The translations under genes and the position numbers were made by a program. This document shows positions 37,262 to 41,912 of a stretch of DNA of 64,000 nt, piece after piece. The notes beneath the pieces are model-generated. The model did no database searches. It was not told the DNA's origin and saw only the letters and a program-made list of their open reading frames with translations. Positions within the stretch are counted from its first letter, which is position 1, and the number at the start of each line of letters is the position of its first letter. Source of the stretch: Candidatus Campbellbacteria bacterium (GTDB taxonomy: Bacteria; Patescibacteriota; Minisyncoccia; Phycocordibacterales; EsbW-18); assembly GCA_016699465.1 (NCBI GenBank), contig CP064977.1, positions 409,743 to 473,742 on the forward strand, written 5' to 3'.

Positions 37262-37714
37262 CCAAAATATTTCCACTCTTCAATGTTTGTGTAGTATTCC
37301 CCGACGTATACATCGGAGCAAAAAGAAATCAGCGCGCTATGAATCGATTTTCAGATTACCTAACAGGAGATGTCGACGAATTAGTACATCTCGGCTCCAC
37401 ACATTACTGTGCGTCCACCTAATGCCTATCAACGTGATCATCTCTCACGGGTCTTAATGATTTCTAATCTTGAAGTTGGCTTCCCTCTTAGATGCTTTCA
37501 GAGGTTATCCATTCCCGACATAGCTACGCAGCGGTGCACCTGGCGGTACAGCTGCCACACCAGAGGTCAGTTCATTCCGGTCCTCTCGTACTAGGAACGA
37601 ATCTTCTCAAAAATCAGCGCCTGCAGCAGATAGGAGACCAACCTGTCTCACGCATGTTTCCAACGATTGCTCGTTGCATTGGACTATACCTTATACCTCG
37701 CTTTGCGAGTAAAC

Positions 37715-38375
37715 CCAAAGTTCAAATTTCAAAGCTCAAAATTTTGGATTTTGTGCTTTGTGCTTTGGATTTTCTTCTGCATCGCAGAAGGCATGTTGAC
37801 ATGTAGTCTCTACGGGTAATTGTGAATTCTATTGAGGGGCCGACGCAGGGTCAGCCCGGAACTTTCTGATCGAGTCAGATGATCCAGCTCGTCAGCATGT
37901 AGCTGGCGAAAAAGACCAAGACGCTGAGCGCGATCTTGATGTCGCGATCGACGTTCCTCATTTCTTCCTTGGTAGGGTGAACGAAGAAGTCTCGACGACT
38001 GCACGCAGGAAGAAATCCCGGCATGAAAGAACCTCCTTTCTGGACAGAAATGTCCTCAATAGAACTCACAATCATTCCCTCGGAATTACCCATAAAGGGT
38101 TTTCCCGATATAAGTCAACTTACTTCATACACATTACTATGTATGACCGCCGTGATATGATTGGTTCCTTTTAGTTTTCATCTTAAAAGACGAAAAGATT
38201 TTTTGGGCAACCGATTTCATTTTAAAATCGGAAGTTTTATTAGACAACATTACTTCGAAGGGATTCAGACTGTTTTGAAACCAATCACAAAATCCAAAGT
38301 TCAAAATCCAAAAAAATTCTAAGGTTTAAATCTTAAAAAACTTTTTTGAGCTTTGTGCTTTGAGCTTTTGATTTC
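37715..38375. repeat. IVS-like insertion in 23S, bounded by palindromic AT-rich repeat copies
   Basis: Copies of AAAGTTCAAAATCCAAAAAA...TTTTGAGCTTTGTGCTTTGAG at both ends (37715-37775, 38290-38375). A GC-rich interior has short ORFs with weak similarity (SRRDFFVH) to the four-helix-bundle protein. Confidence 0.55.
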
Positions 38376-40849
38376 AGTTCCAGAACGGTCTGAACCCAGC
38401 TCGCGTACCTTTTTAAATGGCGAACAGCCATACCCTTGGGACCTTCTCCAGCCCCGGGATAAGGTGAGCCGACATCGAGGTGCCGAACACCACCGTCGCT
38501 ATGGACGCTCGGGTGGTACCAGCCTGTTATCCCCAGAGTAGCTTTTATCCGTTGAGCTCCCCCCGCATCTAAAGCGAAAGGTCGGATCACTATGCTCTAC
38601 TTTCGTACCTGCTCGACATGTCCGTCTTGCAGTTAAGCCCTCTTTTGCCATTACACTATCGGCACGGTTTCCATTCGCGCCTAGAGGACCTTTATAGACC
38701 CCTCCGTTACTTTTTAGGAGGGATTCGCCCCAAACAAACTACCTGCCAGATACTGTTCCCTACCGTTTTTGCCGTCAGGGTTAGAACGTACAATTCAAAA
38801 GAGTGGTATTTCATATTTCGAGTCCAGCAGAGCCAAAACCCTGCCTTCAACCTCTCCCACCTATGCTACGCATTTAACTCGTACGCCCAATATCAAGCTG
38901 TAGTAAAGCTTCTGGGGTCTTTTCGTCTAGCTGCAGGTAGAGGGCATCTTCACCCCCATTGTATTTTCACCGAGCGAGTCCTCGAGACAGTTCCCCAGTC
39001 GTTACACCATTCGTGCGCGTCAGAACTTACCTGACAAGGAATTGCGCTACCTTAGGACCGTTATAGTTACGGCCGACATTCACCAGGGCTTATACAGTTC
39101 AGCATATACCTTGCGGCACACACCCCCCGTACTTGACCTTCTGGCATTGGTCAGGTGTCACCCCCTATACATCCTCTTGCGAGTTCGCAGGGAGCTGTGT
39201 TTTTGATAAACAGTCGCCAGGGAGACTTTCGCTGCGGCCCACGTACTGCTACGTGGGCAGACCTTATTGCTAACTTACGGTCGCTTTTTTGCCGAGTTCC
39301 TTGAGGACCTCTCACTCGTTCGCCTTACTCTACTCGAGCTGAACACCGGAGTCGGTTTGCGGTACGGTCTGTGTGTATTTATTCTTAGAAGATTTTCTTG
39401 GAAGCGCGCTCTATACCATTCCCCAACCCGAAAGTTGAGTTCTCGAAAACACTCGGGATAGTGCCTGCCGGATTTACCTAACAAGCGCCCTCGTGTCCCC
39501 GACACAAATCCAATAATGTGCGATATATACAGCACTCCGTCTCTCCATCGAAATACACCCAGGTCATGGAATATTAACCATGTGTCCATCATGTTCGGAT
39601 TTCTCCATCCACTTAGGCCCGACTAACCCTTCGCTGATTACCATCGCGAAGGAAACCTTGTTCTTTCGGCGTGCGGGTATTTCACCCGCATTGCGGTTAC
39701 TTGTACCAACATTCGCTCTTCGGAACGCTCCACCGTGGCTCACGCCTTCGGCTTCATCGCAGATCCAAATGCTCTCCTACCACTGCACATGCACGAATGC
39801 ACATACAATCCTCAGTTTCGGTACAATGCTTAGCCCCGATTGTCTGTGGCGCGAAGTCTCTAAATGAGTGAGCTGTTACGCTTTCTTTAAAAGATGGCTG
39901 CTTCTAAGCCAACTTCCTCAGTGTTTAAGAAACTTCACCTCCTCGACTGTGCACTTAGCATTGATTTTGGGACCTTAACTTGAGATCAAGGGCTGTTTCC
40001 CTTTTGACCAGTGGAGCTTAGCCCCCACGGTCTAACTGCCTAACACTTTACTCTTGGTATTCGGAGTTTGATTGGTCCAGCGAGATTTCTCCCTATCCAG
40101 ACCATCCAGTGCTCTACCCCCAAGAGGTACGTTAGACGCCAGCCCAAAAGCTGTTTCGGAGAGAACCAGCTATTACTAGGTTCGATAAGCTTTTCACTCC
40201 AACCCACAAGTCATCCGAAGATTTTGCACCATCAACCGGTTCGGGCCTCCCTCCATCTTTCGACAGAGTTCACCCTGCTCATGGGTAGCTCACCTAGCTT
40301 CGGGTCTTATGCAGACGACTAAAAGTAGAAGTTGGAGGCCAGACTCGAAGATACCGAAGTACCTTTTCGCCTGACTTCTAACTTCTACTATGTTCGCGCT
40401 ATTCACACTCGGTTTCCCTACAGATTCATCCGACAAAGGACTTATCTTACGCCGTGTGCATAAACTCGTTGGCTCATTCTTCAATAGGCACGCCATGACG
40501 GTCTTGCGACCGCGCTGACTCCTTGTAGGCATATGGTTTCAGATCTATTTCACTCCCCTCTCCGGGGTTCTTTTCACCTTTCCCTCGCGGTACTAGTTCA
40601 CTATCGGTCTCAATGTGTATGTAGCCTTGCCGGTTAGTTCCGGCGGATTCCCTCAGGCTATTCGTGTCCTGAGGTACTCAGGAACGGTAACTAGAAAGAT
40701 GTGTTCTTTTCGCATACAGGACTATTACCCTCTAGGGTCGCGCTTTCCAGCGCATTCTGCTAAGAACACATTTTGTAACTTTCTCCTTATCCGAAGACAG
40801 GCGTTACCGCCCTACAACCCCGCACGCATCACGCTGTACGCGATGCGTA

Positions 40850-40940
40850 AATCCAAAATCCAAAGTTCAAAATCCAAAAAAATTCTAAGATTTTAATTCT
40901 TAAAAACTTTTTTGAGCTTTGTACTTTAAGCTTTGTGCTT
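40850..40940. repeat. short hairpin-only copy of the same palindromic repeat in the 23S 5' domain
   Basis: aatccaaagttcaaaatccaaaaaaattctaag...ctttttttgagctttgtactttaagctttgtgctt. Confidence 0.5.
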
Positions 40941-41912
40941 ACCCATCACATCCAATGTGATGCGCACGGTTTGGGCTTCTCCCGTTTCGCTCGCCGCTAC
41001 TAAGGGAATGACAATTGTTTTCTTTTCCACTGGGTACTGAGATGTTTCACTTCCCCAGGTATGCTCCTCATATTGCTATGAGATTATCGAGGGTTACTCG
41101 ATAGGGTTTCCCCATTCGGAAATCTCCGGATCAAAGGTTGCTTAACACCTCCCCGAAGCTTATCGCAGTTACACCACGTCCTTCATCGCCACATTGAACC
41201 AAGGCATCCACCATACGCCCTTTAAATCTCCCGTTAGGAAATCTAAAAACCGTCTCGCATACAACCGCCTACAAAGTGGTTGCATGCTACTTTCATATTT
41301 CTACTTGATTGTTTCATTGGAGCTAGATTAACCAATGAAACTACCTGCTCTTGTCTTACTCAAAAGACAAGAATTTTTGATTCTTTTTGCCCCGACTTTT
41401 TATAGTCGGGATACTACCTATGCAGTTGTCAAAGTTCATCTACCTTGTATGAGAACAAAAAAACCGCTTTTTCAAGCGGAGATTTCTGAGGCACACCGAT
41501 TGTGCGCATTTAGATGCTCCGCGTCGATATGCAGTTAGCTGGTGTATTCATACTAGGTGTTGCCTATTATAGCCATGCAGAGCACCGTGTCAAGGATTTA
41601 GGTCCCAAAAATGCCTCTTTAGTGCAATCAAAAAATGAGACAAAAAACCCTTACAGAATAAAGGTTTTTAAGACCGTCTATAAAAGTCCTGAAAAGTCCC
41701 TGGGGAGAACCTGTGGGTAAGATTTCATTCGCCTCACTTTCTTGGAAACACGCATCGTTTTCTGCTGAAAACGCGCTCCCTCTCGAGCTCAGCTCTCCGA
41801 GAGTTTTCCAAAAAAGAAGGCTTCACCCCTAAGGTTTGGATACAAAAAAATAATGGAAAAGAGCCCGACGGACAAAGCTTTTAGACTCTTTTCCACGGGC
41901 TCTTGCACCCAC

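What the first reader, a model, noticed from the sequence alone, without database searches (positions are those of the whole stretch)
37346..41252. 23S rRNA interrupted by IVS-like insertions built from a dispersed palindromic repeat family
The conserved 5' (GGTGGATGCCTTGG) and 3' (AGTACGAGAGGACCGG...GTACTAAT) landmarks are about 3.9 kb apart, roughly 1 kb more than a standard 23S. One insertion (about 37715-38375) is bounded by AAAGTTCAAAATCCAAAAAA...TTTTGAGCTTTGTGCTTTGAG palindromic arms. A second hairpin-only copy sits at 40850-40940. Such stem-bounded inserts are characteristic of RNase III-excised intervening sequences, which would yield a fragmented 23S. No 16S was found upstream in the window, so the rrl gene appears unlinked from rrs.
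Basis: partly seen in the sequence, partly recalled or inferred. Interest (0 to 1): 0.55.

Follow-up and report, generated by a model that had tools for sequence, protein, structure and literature searches.

The report
23S intron carrying mobile hairpin elements
The 23S rRNA gene of this ultra-small (CPR, Campbellbacteria) bacterium is split by a self-splicing group I intron at the well-known position 2593, not by an RNase III-cut spacer. The intron and one rRNA helix also carry copies of a small mobile hairpin of the type that forms classical rRNA 'intervening sequences', a pattern already known in this bacterial group.

Summary
The 23S gene lies on the minus strand at 41234-37361 and is 3874 nt long. 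The default Rfam hit (38306-41234) looks normal in length only because its 3' end is force-fitted into the insert. The large insert (38384-37653, 732 nt) is not an IVS. It is a group I intron placed exactly after E. coli U2593. It has a U.G splice-site pair, an 11-nt internal guide complementary to both exons, P2-P9 with the P3/P7 pseudoknot, R/S elements and a terminal G. Covariation across 17 homologues supports the fold, and the 302-nt orthologue in a close relative passes Rfam's group I threshold. Compared with three close relatives, the window's intron gained three terminal-loop inserts: hairpin A, a 220-nt GC-richer block, and a block holding hairpin C. The second insert (40961-40832) is a roughly 65-bp rod at a domain I helix tip and is 91% identical to A. 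Its arms match those that bracket a chromosomal 23S_rRNA_IVP gene, the architecture of true IVSs such as Coxiella's. Relatives carry same-family hairpins at other helices, including helix 45. RNase III cleavage is plausible but untested. No 16S is present in the window. This is a known kind of feature for CPR bacteria.

The parts
38385..41234 (-). 23S rRNA exon 1 (E. coli positions 1-2593)
   Evidence: Rfam LSU hit starts at 41234. The exon ends in ...GCTGGGTTCAGACCGT. That final T corresponds to E. coli U2593.
37653..38384 (-). Group I intron at L2593, 732 nt
   Evidence: Removing it restores a 23S colinear with E. coli. The core helices are supported by covariation. The orthologue in L256 scores 55.2 bits against RF00028. 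The window copy itself scores only 19.3 bits.
37361..37652 (-). 23S rRNA exon 2 (E. coli 2594 to the 3' end)
   Evidence: cmscan of this stretch alone matches LSU model positions 2620-2925 at 256.1 bits, E 1.8e-82.
38145..38155 (-). Internal guide sequence UCACG|GCGGUC. It forms P10 with the 3' exon CGUG(A) and P1 with the 5' exon GACCGU, including the U.G pair at the splice site.
   Evidence: It is the reverse complement of the ligated exons apart from the one G.U position. CACGGCGGUC (the guide minus its first U) is invariant in all 17 aligned introns; 16 of the 82 metagenomic introns have CACG[GA]CGGTC.
38261..38273 (-). Conserved ACAGUCUGAAUCC, a second segment complementary to the 5' exon (GGUUCAGAC)
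   Evidence: It is largely conserved in alignment A1. It covaries with exon position 2588 across intron classes: GTCTGAA pairs with exon TTCAGAC, and GTTTGAA with TTCAAAC. Its role is unexplained.
38278..38378 (-). Hairpin element A (repeat core 38288-38368), at the tip of the first intron hairpin between the 5' splice site and the guide sequence
   Evidence: It is a window-only block relative to homologous introns and is absent from the orthologues in L256 and L258. It is 91% identical to B. It folds better as sense RNA, with 7 G.U pairs.
38127..38144 (-). P2 hairpin with a GUAA loop
   Evidence: 6 of its 7 pairs show compensatory changes.
38080..38119 (-). P3 5' strand (38119-38114), P4 and P5 (38108-38080)
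   Evidence: P3 has 4 pairs with double changes, and P4/P5 are 93% paired.
37836..38055 (-). 220-nt insert in the P6 terminal loop, at 54% GC against 35% for the rest of the intron. It holds an AAGGAGG Shine-Dalgarno motif (38038-38032) and a 49-codon ORF (38024-37875). It is closed by a 19-bp stem, of which 18 bp belong to the modelled P6b (38072-38054 / 37837-37819).
   Evidence: (repeat I14). It is absent from all three orthologues. No homologue was found in the other introns or elsewhere in the window.
37795..37808 (-). R element: P7 5' strand (37808-37804) and P3 3' strand (37800-37795)
   Evidence: The sequence GUAGAGACUACAUGUCAAC is visible. The P3/P7 pseudoknot was counted.
37706..37780 (-). 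Hairpin element C, lying in the expanded P8 loop and flanked by two small hairpins (CUUCUGC/GCAGAAG and CUCGC/GCGAG)
   Evidence: It is a window-only block. The orthologues have a plain P8, CAUCCAAAAAAGUUGGAUG. Its arms are related to those of A, B and the IVP cassette.
37653..37691 (-). S element (AAGGUAUAGUCC; P7 3' strand at 37686-37682), P9 hairpin (37676-37661, GCAA loop) and the terminal G at 37653
   Evidence: 5 of the 6 P9 pairs show compensatory changes.
40832..40961 (-). Element B, a 130-nt rod-like hairpin replacing the loop of the domain I hairpin (Rfam LSU model ~274-296, after E. coli 280). The repeat core is 40854-40934. An outer module runs GCAUCACAUUGGAUGUGAUG ... CAUCGCGUACAGCGUGAUGC.
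   Evidence: Rfam shows 133 nt where the model has 5. It folds at -68.4 kcal/mol with z -8.9. As sense RNA it folds at -42.4 against -25.5 for the antisense strand, with 11 G.U pairs. L003 has a short hairpin at this site, while L002 and L256 have different fillers. The same outer module flanks hairpins at other helices in L255.
41381..41395 (-). 5' strand of the probable pre-23S processing stem, which pairs with 37313-37327
   Evidence: Inverted repeat I17, 15 nt and 93% complementary, brackets the whole 23S. Its function is inferred.
37313..37327 (-). 3' strand of the probable pre-23S processing stem
   Evidence: repeat I17.
49696..50170 (-). Chromosomal 'IVS cassette': a PF05635 23S_rRNA_IVP ORF (49739-50128) bracketed by arms of the same heptamer-repeat family
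   Evidence: Pfam 43.4 bits, E 4.4e-11. The arms form a 17-bp duplex. The arms of A, B and D align to them. The cassette is syntenic in relatives and keeps its arms there.
48272..48376 (-). Hairpin element D of the same family, lying between rpsG and rpsL

Best explanation
The window holds the single rrl-tRNA-rrf unit of a Candidatus Campbellbacteria (CPR/Patescibacteria) genome, transcribed from the minus strand.

(1) The 732-nt insert is a group I intron at 23S position L2593, in helix 93 next to the peptidyl-transferase centre.
- The last six exon nucleotides, GACCGU, pair with the guide GCGGUC 230-240 nt into the intron. This forms P1 with the canonical U.G pair.
- The adjacent CACG pairs with the 3' exon CGUG to form P10.
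- The core (P2, P3-P8 with the P3/P7 pseudoknot, P9) folds. An external guanosine cleaves after U2593. The terminal G (37653) then docks and the exons are ligated. The result is a continuous 3142-nt 23S.
- Compared with its 302-369-nt orthologues in close relatives, this copy has acquired three insertions, all in terminal loops where group I introns tolerate extra RNA. These are hairpin A, a 220-nt GC-richer block in L6, and a block in L8 that contains hairpin C.

(2) The 130-nt insert in domain I (element B) is an ORF-less member of a mobile hairpin family whose arms are tandem heptamers (CAAAGNN / NNCUUUG).
- The same arms bracket a chromosomal PF05635 (IVS-protein, S23p, Avd-like) gene.
- This is the architecture of bona fide RNase III-excised IVSs.
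- B forms a rod of about 65 bp at a helix tip. I think it most likely that RNase III cuts it without religation, giving a 5' piece of about 0.27 kb and a 3' piece of about 2.7 kb. It could instead be kept as an expansion segment.

Shown here: the insert boundaries, the intron core and its covariation, orthologues that lack A, C and the L6 block, the repeat homology, and the presence of same-family elements at different helices in relatives.

Inferred: splicing activity, RNase III cleavage, and the way the hairpins move.
For: Boundaries:
- Exon 2 matches LSU model 2620-2925 at 256 bits.
- The spliced sequence is colinear with E. coli, and the junction falls after U2593.

Intron identity:
- The guide UCACGGCGGUC is the reverse complement of the ligated exons except for the G.U position. 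The R element GUAGAGACUACA, the S element AAGGUAUAGUCC and a terminal G are all present.
- A metagenome scan found at least 120 loci with an S element 10-40 nt upstream of exon CGUGAGACAG. Of these, 82 have both exons, with intron lengths of 229-1287 nt.
- On the 17-sequence alignment A1, 95.4% of cells pair, against 32-40% when the partners are slid. Eighteen pairs carry compensatory changes. Ninety-four doubly changed cells were counted against 27+-5 in shuffles, with 0 of 500 shuffles reaching the observed value.
- The orthologous intron in L256 scores 55.2 bits against RF00028 (gathering score 50), E 1.4e-13.
- The orthologues in L255, L256 and L258 have near-identical core sequences but lack A, the L6 block and C.

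Hairpin family:
- A and B are 91% identical over 81 nt. Copies are far above chance expectation.
- B folds at -68.4 kcal/mol, z -8.9. It shows a sense-strand bias with 11 G.U pairs.
- The PF05635 ORF is bracketed by the same arms.
- All 7 IVP genes examined, from CPR and Phycisphaerales, are bracketed by heptamer arms. Their flank duplex energy averages -32.0 kcal/mol against -17.5 for 25 control genes.
- The Coxiella IVS is excised by RNase III and has tandem heptameric repeats just upstream of its S23p start codon (PMC4990558).
- L255 carries same-family hairpins, with the same outer module, at about E. coli 545, 1176 (helix 45), 1730 and 1880.

Context: CPR 23S genes commonly carry group I introns at position 2593 and short non-intron inserts that are 'probably IVS' (PMC11270868).
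Against: - The window's own intron scores only 19.3 bits, E 0.13, against Rfam RF00028. This is below threshold, so its membership rests on orthology, my hand-built structure and covariation.
- P1 and P10 are invariant in the alignment, so they carry no covariation signal.
- The guide sequence lies unusually far (230 nt) from the 5' splice site. A second conserved exon-complementary segment (38261-38273) is unexplained.
- The unconstrained minimum-energy fold pairs the arms of A with those of C, at -263.6 against -241.9 kcal/mol for the core-constrained fold. That pairing could compete with the catalytic fold.
- There are no RNA data, so neither splicing nor cleavage of B has been shown.
- B's site (about E. 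coli 271-280) is not one of the classical IVS sites.
- No RNase III gene was looked for.
- No transposase or clear target-site duplication was found for the hairpins.
- Heptamer hairpins of similar sequence occur in many phyla without a neighbouring IVP gene.
Confidence: 0.85

Rival explanations
1. The roughly 0.7-kb insert is an intervening sequence bounded by complementary palindromic arms (A near one end, C near the other). The arms pair and are cut by RNase III without religation, so the 23S breaks at about position 2593.
For: The unconstrained minimum-energy fold of the insert does pair the arms of A with those of C. That fold is about 22 kcal/mol more stable than the core-constrained fold. 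The arms belong to an IVS-type family.
Against: - The insert lies within a universally conserved strand (H93), not at a helix tip.
- The complete group I core has covariation support.
- The orthologue passes Rfam's group I threshold.
- Three close relatives have the same insert at the same site without A or C, so the arms cannot be what removes it.
- A and C stop 6 and 53 nt short of the insert's ends. Cutting there would leave extra RNA in H93.
- A and C each fold locally.
Confidence: 0.03
2. Element B is not excised. It stays in the mature 23S as a bacterial expansion segment, a solvent-side rod on domain I.
For: - B fits better as sense-strand RNA (11 G.U pairs, -42.4 against -25.5 kcal/mol), which suggests selection on the RNA.
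- Its site is not a classical IVS site.
- The same helix carries a different long hairpin in each of three relatives, as an evolving expansion segment would.
- A clade-specific 71-nt helix after E. coli 651 is plainly retained and conserved.
Against: - A near-perfect stem of about 65 bp is an ideal RNase III substrate.
- The arms are homologous to those around an IVP gene. In Coxiella such stems are cut by RNase III.
- Tsurumaki et al. judge short CPR inserts at the two classical IVS sites to be probable IVSs and say CPR may contain this type.
- A sense-strand bias is equally expected for an RNase III substrate.
Confidence: 0.4
3. The hairpins are not mobile elements. They are local outgrowths produced by heptamer slippage at helix tips, and gene conversion homogenises them within a genome.
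For: - The arms are tandem degenerate heptamers of variable number.
- Each lineage has its own heptamer flavour: CAAAG, GTAGCTT, ACATG, TTTCG.
- Nostoc tRNA-Leu intron P6b shows the same kind of heptamer copy-number variation (PMC3488679).
- No transposase or clear target-site duplication was found.
Against: - A and B share 81 nt at 91% identity, loop included, in unrelated flanks.
- The same composite element (outer module plus inner arms) sits at the domain I hairpin in the window but at helix 45 and three other helices in L255.
- The loop of B retains about 17 nt resembling the 3' end of the IVP ORF, as expected for a deletion derivative.
- Slippage and mobility are not mutually exclusive.
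Confidence: 0.15
4. The extra sequence is an assembly artefact, for example repeat-induced mis-joins, or this rrl is a decaying pseudogene.
For: The 81-nt repeats at 91% identity could confuse assemblers. Two Logan contigs of related strains break at 23S position 128. One independent contig starts inside exon 2.
Against: - The flanks on both sides of every insert are colinear with three relatives.
- The exons are intact and score 2069 and 256 bits.
- The intron core is intact and orthologous.
- L001 is 100% identical to the window across exon 2, the tRNAs and the 5S.
- CPR genomes normally have one rrl copy, and none other is in the window.
Confidence: 0.03

Closest known systems
Group I introns at 23S position L2593. 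Examples are CPR site '23IS12' (Tsurumaki et al. 2024, PMC11270868), the thermophilic cyanobacteria Synechococcus C9, S. lividus and Thermosynechococcus (Haugen et al. 2007, PMC1995217), and the Chlamydomonas chloroplast Cr.LSU/I-CreI intron (from my own knowledge).
   Same: The insertion site is identical, after U2593 in H93. The group I core has a U.G pair, P10, R/S elements and a terminal G. ORF-less versions are common in CPR: 222 ORF-less group I introns were reported in CPR 23S genes.
   Different: - No LAGLIDADG ORF is present.
- The orthologues have no P7.1/P7.2, unlike the cyanobacterial L2593 introns.
- The guide sequence lies 230 nt from the 5' splice site, and there is a second exon-complementary segment.
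- Three lineage-specific loop insertions are present, two of them IVS-type hairpins.
RNase III-processed 23S intervening sequences (IVS), such as the Coxiella burnetii helix 45 IVS with its S23p ORF (PMC4990558). Salmonella, Leptospira and others are from my own knowledge.
   Same: A long terminal inverted-repeat stem sits at a helix tip. Heptameric tandem repeats occur in the arms next to the S23p/IVP start codon. Distribution among close relatives is sporadic. ORF-less short forms exist.
   Different: - In the window the IVP ORF is not inside the rRNA but at a chromosomal locus (L28-IVP-M50 peptidase-S12-S7-EF-G).
- The rRNA copy has no ORF and sits at about E. coli 271-280, not at helices 9, 25 or 45.
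- Two more copies lie inside an intron.
- Cleavage has not been tested.
Heptanucleotide-repeat hairpin in P6b of the Nostoc tRNA-Leu(UAA) group I intron (Costa et al. 2002, cited in PMC3488679)
   Same: Degenerate heptamer repeats pair to form a variable-length hairpin at a peripheral loop of a bacterial group I intron. Copy number differs between strains.
   Different: The host gene, the phylum and the repeat sequence all differ. In this window the same family also sits in mature rRNA, in intergenic spacers and around an IVP gene.
Repetitive hairpin-forming elements of organelle genomes, such as the sponge mitochondrial RHEs found in rnl and rns (PMC2800124)
   Same: They are small dispersed hairpins found in intergenic regions and also inserted into variable regions of rRNA genes. 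No transposase is encoded.
   Different: They are organellar, have much shorter stems (8-15 bp), and lack both the heptamer architecture and any link to an IVP ORF.

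Membership tests
Group I intron (Rfam RF00028) | Interrupts a conserved gene so that removing it restores the uninterrupted sequence | tested here: met
   Exon 2 matches LSU model 2620-2925. The spliced 3142-nt sequence is colinear with E. coli rrlH, and the junction GACCGU|CGUGAG falls after U2593.
Group I intron (Rfam RF00028) | P1 formed between the 5' exon end and an internal guide, with a U.G pair at the splice site, and P10 formed with the 3' exon | tested here: met
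   The guide UCACG|GCGGUC at 38155-38145 pairs with GACCGU and CGUG(A). CACG[GA]CGGTC is present in 16 metagenomic homologues. The pairs are invariant, so there is no covariation signal.
Group I intron (Rfam RF00028) | Conserved core P3-P8 with the P3/P7 pseudoknot and R/S sequence elements, supported by covariation | tested here: met
   95.4% of cells pair against 32-40% in slid controls. Eighteen pairs show compensatory changes, and 0 of 500 shuffles reach the observed score. R is GUAGAGACUACA and S is AAGGUAUAGUCC.
Group I intron (Rfam RF00028) | Terminal guanosine (omega G) at the 3' end of the intron | tested here: met
   The intron ends ...GAAACAUG, with the G at 37653. A terminal G is present in all 17 aligned introns.
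Group I intron (Rfam RF00028) | Score at or above the curated gathering threshold (50 bits) | tested here: inconclusive
   The window copy scores 19.3 bits, E 0.13. Three loop insertions totalling about 430 nt depress the score. The 302-nt orthologue in close relative L256 scores 55.2 bits, E 1.4e-13.
Group I intron (Rfam RF00028) | Guanosine-dependent self-splicing | not testable with these tools
   Requires in-vitro transcription and splicing, or RNA-seq.
RNase III-processed rRNA intervening sequence (IVS) | Extra sequence that replaces the tip of an rRNA helix and forms a long stem from terminal inverted repeats | tested here: met
   Element B has 133 nt where the Rfam model hairpin loop has 5. 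It forms one continuous rod at -68.4 kcal/mol, z -8.9. The 732-nt insert does NOT meet this feature, because it lies within the conserved H93 strand.
RNase III-processed rRNA intervening sequence (IVS) | Sporadic presence or absence, or replacement, among close relatives | tested here: met
   L003 has a short hairpin at the site, while L002/L255 and L256 have different fillers. L255 has same-family hairpins at other helices, including helix 45.
RNase III-processed rRNA intervening sequence (IVS) | Link to the S23p/IVP (PF05635) ORF, or to its flanking repeats | tested here: met
   B has no ORF, but its arms and part of its loop align to the arms that bracket the PF05635 gene at 49739-50128. 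Heptamer arms flank all 7 IVP genes checked. Heptameric repeats are also reported in the Coxiella IVS.
RNase III-processed rRNA intervening sequence (IVS) | Excision by RNase III without religation, giving a fragmented 23S | not testable with these tools
   No RNA data are available, and the RNase III gene was not searched for.
MITE-like dispersed palindromic element | Multiple similar copies in unrelated sequence contexts | tested here: met
   Elements A, B, C and D plus the cassette arms all lie within 13 kb of the window. L255 has copies at at least 4 rRNA helices.
MITE-like dispersed palindromic element | Defined terminal inverted repeats with a target-site duplication, and an autonomous partner that encodes a transposase | tested here: inconclusive
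   An outer module GCATCAC...GTGATGC flanked by CG...CG recurs, but no clear target-site duplication and no transposase were found. The only ORF-bearing relative encodes an IVP, whose role in mobility is unknown.

The most novel reading that the evidence does not exclude
Classical rRNA 'intervening sequences' may be one face of a widespread selfish cassette. The cassette is a PF05635 (S23p, IVP, Avd-like) ORF bracketed by heptamer-repeat inverted arms. It inserts wherever a long stem is tolerated in a transcript: rRNA helix tips, group I intron loops, and spacers inside operons (leuC-IVP-leuD-IVP-leuB in Phycisphaerales; L28-IVP-M50 in CPR). The cassette decays into ORF-less hairpins that keep spreading. 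These hairpins would be the raw material of the short rRNA insertions and expansion-like helices in CPR bacteria. The IVP protein might bind or mobilise the hairpins.
Probability: 0.25. Interest if true: 0.7.

Novelty: new member of a known kind. Interest (0 to 1): 0.4.

Why it matters
(1) Practical. A standard covariance-model annotation reports a normal-length 23S (38306-41234). It therefore mis-places the 3' end by about 950 nt and hides both the intron and the last 292 nt of the gene. CPR rRNA annotations and rRNA-based phylogenies are exposed to this error.

(2) Evolutionary. Comparing four close relatives captures a group I intron while it is acquiring loop insertions. It also shows a hairpin element hopping between rRNA helices, which gives a concrete picture of how CPR rRNA genes became so insertion-rich.

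(3) Origin of IVSs. The arms of the rRNA hairpins match those around a chromosomal IVS-protein gene, and heptamer arms flanked every PF05635 gene checked. The old and unresolved question of where bacterial IVSs come from, and what S23p/IVP does, therefore becomes testable.

Tried and rejected
- Default Rfam scan. It suggested a normal 2929-nt 23S. I rejected this after reading the sequence and searching exon 2 on its own.
- MAFFT of the unspliced gene against E. coli. It mis-aligned the 3' end in the same way.
- Rfam RF00028 on the window's intron. The hit is sub-threshold, so I used the orthologue and covariation instead.
- First covariation count. It used one bracket type for P3 and P7, so the pseudoknot was mis-paired. 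I redid it correctly.
- L003 as a comparator for the intron site. Its 23S stops matching at window position 2212, so it is uninformative there.
- Genome-wide scan with the family 17-mer TTTGAGCTTTGTGCTTT. It returned at least 120 loci across many phyla, notably Pyrinomonadaceae, and 36 of them have heptamer hairpins. None has a PF05635 gene within 700 nt. The 17-mer is therefore not a specific marker of an IVP cassette, and the scan did not return the source genome.
- My period-7 hairpin detector on the metagenome loci. It was too strict and missed known cases, so I dropped it.
- The L6 insert and its small ORFs. No Pfam hit was found. There was no similarity to ORFs or inserts of the 82 other L2593 introns, nor to the rest of the window. 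I could neither support nor exclude a degenerate homing-endonuclease remnant.
- Assigning the intron to a subgroup (IA, IB or IC). I did not attempt this rigorously.
- The helix number of B's site. I give it by Rfam model position and E. coli coordinate only.

Full report
**What is at the coordinates.** Rfam places a bacterial LSU rRNA on the minus strand at 38306-41234, covering model positions 1-2925. A 5S gene lies at 36651-36758, and three tRNA-like genes sit between the two. No SSU rRNA occurs anywhere in the 64-kb window. At face value this is a normal-length 23S and would refute the finding.

Reading the minus strand shows otherwise. The conserved run ...GGUACGCGAGCUGGGUUCAGACCGU breaks at 38385. 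It resumes 732 nt later at 37652 with CGUGAGACAGGUUGGUC..., followed by AGUACGAGAGGACCGG and GUACUAAU. A covariance search of 37300-37652 alone matches LSU model positions 2620-2925 at 256 bits, E 1.8e-82. The default hit had forced its last ~300 model positions into the insert.

After the 732 nt are removed, the 3142-nt sequence aligns colinearly with E. coli rrlH. The break falls exactly after U2593. Other extra segments relative to E. coli are:
- 130 nt after position 280 (window 40961-40832);
- 57 nt after position 291;
- a 71-nt hairpin after position 651, which is conserved in relatives and so is a clade-specific helix.

**Host.** The neighbouring EF-G is 100% identical to an NCBI protein of 'Candidatus Campbellbacteria bacterium' on an 811-kb contig. 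All close hits are Parcubacteria/Patescibacteria. In this group 82% of 23S genes carry insertions. Position 2593 is a recurrent site of LAGLIDADG-encoding inserts within the zone where the group I intron inserts cluster, 222 ORF-less group I introns are known in 23S genes, and short non-intron inserts are regarded as probable IVSs (PMC11270868).

**The large insert is a group I intron.** It does not sit at a helix tip. It lies inside the universally conserved H93 strand, nine nucleotides upstream of A2602 (E. coli numbering; the role of A2602 is from my own knowledge). The features are:
- The 5' exon ends in U and the insert ends in G.
- At 38155-38145 lies UCACGGCGGUC. This is the reverse complement of the ligated exons GACCGU|CGUGA apart from one G opposite the splice-site U. 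It is an internal guide that forms P1 with the canonical U.G pair, plus P10.
- Downstream come P2 (GUAA loop), P3, P4/P5 with AA junctions, and a long P6.
- The R element GUAGAGACUACA, the P3 3' strand, P8, the S element AAGGUAUAGUCC, P9 (GCAA loop) and the terminal G follow.

A metagenome scan looked for an S element 10-40 nt upstream of exon CGUGAGACAG. It hit its 120-locus limit. Eighty-two loci have both exons, with intron lengths of 229-1287 nt. Sixteen share CACG[GA]CGGTC, the guide minus its first U.

I aligned the window with those 16. My structure, with P3/P7 written as a pseudoknot, gave these counts:
- 95.4% of cells pair, against 32-40% when partners are slid;
- 18 pairs carry compensatory changes;
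- 94 doubly changed cells were found, against 27+-5 in shuffles (0 of 500 shuffles reach this).

P1, P10 and four of the five P7 pairs never vary (the fifth changes on one side only), so they add nothing either way. Rfam's group I model scores the window copy at only 19.3 bits. It scores the orthologous 302-nt intron of the close relative L256 at 55.2 bits, above the curated threshold, with E 1.4e-13.

**The palindromes are secondary passengers.** Three close relatives carry the same intron at the same site with near-identical guide, P2-P5, R, S and P9 sequences. They are L255 (GCA_024653945.1), L256 and L258, whose RodA is 89-92% identical; the genome of L255 (the contig that also gave L002) has an EF-G 94% identical. 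Their introns are only 369, 302 and 308 nt long. The window's copy has about 430 extra nt, all in terminal loops:
- Hairpin A (38378-38278) sits at the tip of the first hairpin, between the splice site and the guide.
- A 220-nt block in L6 (38055-37836) has 54% GC against 35% for the rest. It is closed by a 19-bp stem (18 bp in the modelled P6b) and holds an AAGGAGG motif 7 nt upstream of a 49-codon ORF. No homologue was detected.
- An expanded L8 holds hairpin C (37780-37706) between two small hairpins.

MAFFT against 34 short homologues independently marks the same blocks as window-only. The intron is therefore not 'built from' the repeat family.

However, relatives remove the same insert without those arms. 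A and C also stop short of the true boundaries.

**The short insert (element B).** Rfam shows 133 nt where the model hairpin at positions ~274-296 has a 5-nt loop. The region folds into one near-continuous rod of about 65 bp (-68.4 kcal/mol, z -8.9). Its core is 91% identical over 81 nt to A. As RNA it folds far better in the rRNA sense (-42.4 kcal/mol, 11 G.U pairs) than in antisense (-25.5).

The site is highly variable:
- L003 has a 6-bp hairpin with a 12-nt loop.
- L002/L255 has a 138-nt rod of different heptamers.
- L256 has a GC-rich hairpin.

L255 carries further rods at about E. coli 131-160, 545 (helix 25), 1176 (helix 45), 1730 and 1880. The helix 45 copy has inner arms of the window's B family. 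Three copies share exactly the outer module GCATCACAT.GGATGTGATG...GTGATGC that also flanks B. Finding the same composite element at non-homologous helices in sister genomes is good evidence that it moves.

**Link to true IVSs.** Two arms of the same family bracket a 129-aa ORF at 49739-50128. This ORF is a PF05635 '23S rRNA-intervening sequence protein' (43.4 bits), and NCBI names it a four-helix-bundle protein. It lies outside the rRNA, between the L28 and M50-peptidase genes. That arrangement is conserved down to 54% protein identity.
- The arms form a 17-bp perfect duplex.
- The left arm of A matches the cassette arm 20 of 20, and that of D matches 30 of 33.
- The loop of B resembles the last ~17 nt of the ORF, as expected for ORF-deleted derivatives.

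All seven PF05635 genes I examined are bracketed by heptamer-repeat inverted arms of lineage-specific sequence. They comprise four Campbellbacteria/Patescibacteria, one Doudnabacteria and two inside a Phycisphaerales leuC-leuD-leuB operon. Their flank duplex energy averages -32.0 kcal/mol, against -17.5 for 25 control genes.

The experimentally characterised Coxiella IVS has a 28-bp terminal stem, is excised by RNase III, and has tandem heptameric repeats immediately upstream of its S23p start codon (PMC4990558). PF05635 proteins resemble Avd of diversity-generating retroelements (PMC10053308). B is thus an ORF-less IVS-type hairpin by architecture and homology. Whether it is cut cannot be decided here.

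**Limits.**
- There are no RNA data, so splicing and cleavage are inferences.
- The guide is unusually distant from the 5' splice site.
- A second conserved segment, ACAGUCUGAAUCC (38273-38261), is complementary to exon positions -12 to -4. It covaries with exon position 2588 across intron classes. Its role is open.
- Heptamer hairpins containing the same 17-mer occur in many phyla without IVP neighbours. The repeat type is therefore broader than the cassette.

**Verdict.** The window shows one group I intron at L2593, which is spliced and religated, plus one IVS-type hairpin whose processing is untested. Both kinds are already documented for CPR rRNA genes. The added value lies in the comparative detail and in the cassette link.

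Noticed in passing
window 49696-50170 (-): A PF05635 23S_rRNA_IVP / four-helix-bundle gene lies outside the rRNA, between the L28 and M50-peptidase genes. It is bracketed by a 17-bp inverted repeat made of the same heptamers as the rRNA hairpins. All seven PF05635 genes checked have such arms, including two in a Phycisphaerales leuC-IVP-leuD-IVP-leuB operon (L259).
   Followed up: partly
window 38261-38273 (-): ACAGUCUGAAUCC is largely conserved in the intron subfamily. It is complementary to 5' exon positions -12 to -4. It covaries with exon G/A2588 across intron classes (GTCTGAA with TTCAGAC, GTTTGAA with TTCAAAC). It may be a second exon-binding site or a decoy for P1. Its role is unexplained.
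   Followed up: partly
window 37836-38055 (-): A 220-nt insert sits in intron loop L6, at 54% GC against 35% for the rest of the intron. It is highly structured (-86.8 kcal/mol). It carries AAGGAGG 7 nt upstream of a 49-codon ORF with a hydrophobic C-terminus. It is absent from the orthologues and has no detectable homologue.
   Followed up: partly
window 37113-37263 (-): A tRNA-like gene (Rfam 41.6 bits, missed by ARAGORN) has an 86-nt insert in the D-loop that itself contains a T-arm-like GGGGUUCAAAUCCCU. Its anticodon loop is only 6 nt long. The sequence is identical in an independent assembly (L001).
   Followed up: partly
window 36938-37013 (-): ARAGORN calls this 76-nt tRNA Leu(CAA), yet it has a short variable loop (class I shape) and not the long arm typical of bacterial tRNA-Leu. 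A 78%-similar copy occurs in L257 and L258.
   Followed up: no
window 36802-37293: The 23S-5S spacer holds a three-tRNA cluster bracketed by a 31-nt inverted repeat (36802-36832 / 37263-37293). A 25-nt repeat (36777-36801 / 41415-41439) brackets the 23S plus the tRNAs. Relatives differ: the L256 spacer is about 59 nt with no tRNA, L255 has two other tRNAs, and L257/L258 have one.
   Followed up: partly
window 48272-48376: A hairpin of the same heptamer family (element D) fills the rpsG-rpsL spacer. A counterpart lies at L002 8697-8788.
   Followed up: partly
window 40324-40394 (-): A 71-nt hairpin after E. coli position 651 is absent from E. coli. It is conserved, with compensatory changes, in L002 and L003. 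It is a clade-specific 23S helix and not a member of the repeat family.
   Followed up: partly
L255 4300-8700 (GCA_024653945.1): The sister genome's 23S has rod-like hairpin inserts at about six helices (about E. coli 131-160, 271-280, 545, 1176, 1730 and 1880). Its intron carries that genome's own ACATG-type palindrome at the same loop where the window has element A.
   Followed up: partly
L003 15552-15877 and 17355: In the relative GCA_045863475.1 a ~300-nt insert at helix 25 holds an 88-aa GIY-YIG ORF. Its 23S stops matching at window-equivalent position ~2212, next to an L25 gene. The gene may be truncated or split, or the assembly may be wrong.
   Followed up: no
L007-L126 (genome-contig scan): The 17-mer TTTGAGCTTTGTGCTTT and the surrounding CTTTGNN heptamer hairpins occur in many phyla, strikingly often in Pyrinomonadaceae (Acidobacteriota). 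No PF05635 gene lies nearby in these loci.
   Followed up: partly
L004 12377-12504; L005 5969-6096: Two independent Logan contigs of related strains both end at 23S position 128, where L002 carries an insert. L005 also has about 0.7 kb more than the window between the RRM-protein gene and the 23S.
   Followed up: no
window 28001-30000 and 56001-60000: These stretches have 57-60% GC, in a window that is otherwise 42-50% GC. I did not examine them.
   Followed up: no
L002 4160-5119: The flanks of one control gene (Lactamase_B) form a duplex as strong as the IVP arms (-37.7 kcal/mol). It may be another hairpin-bracketed gene.
   Followed up: no
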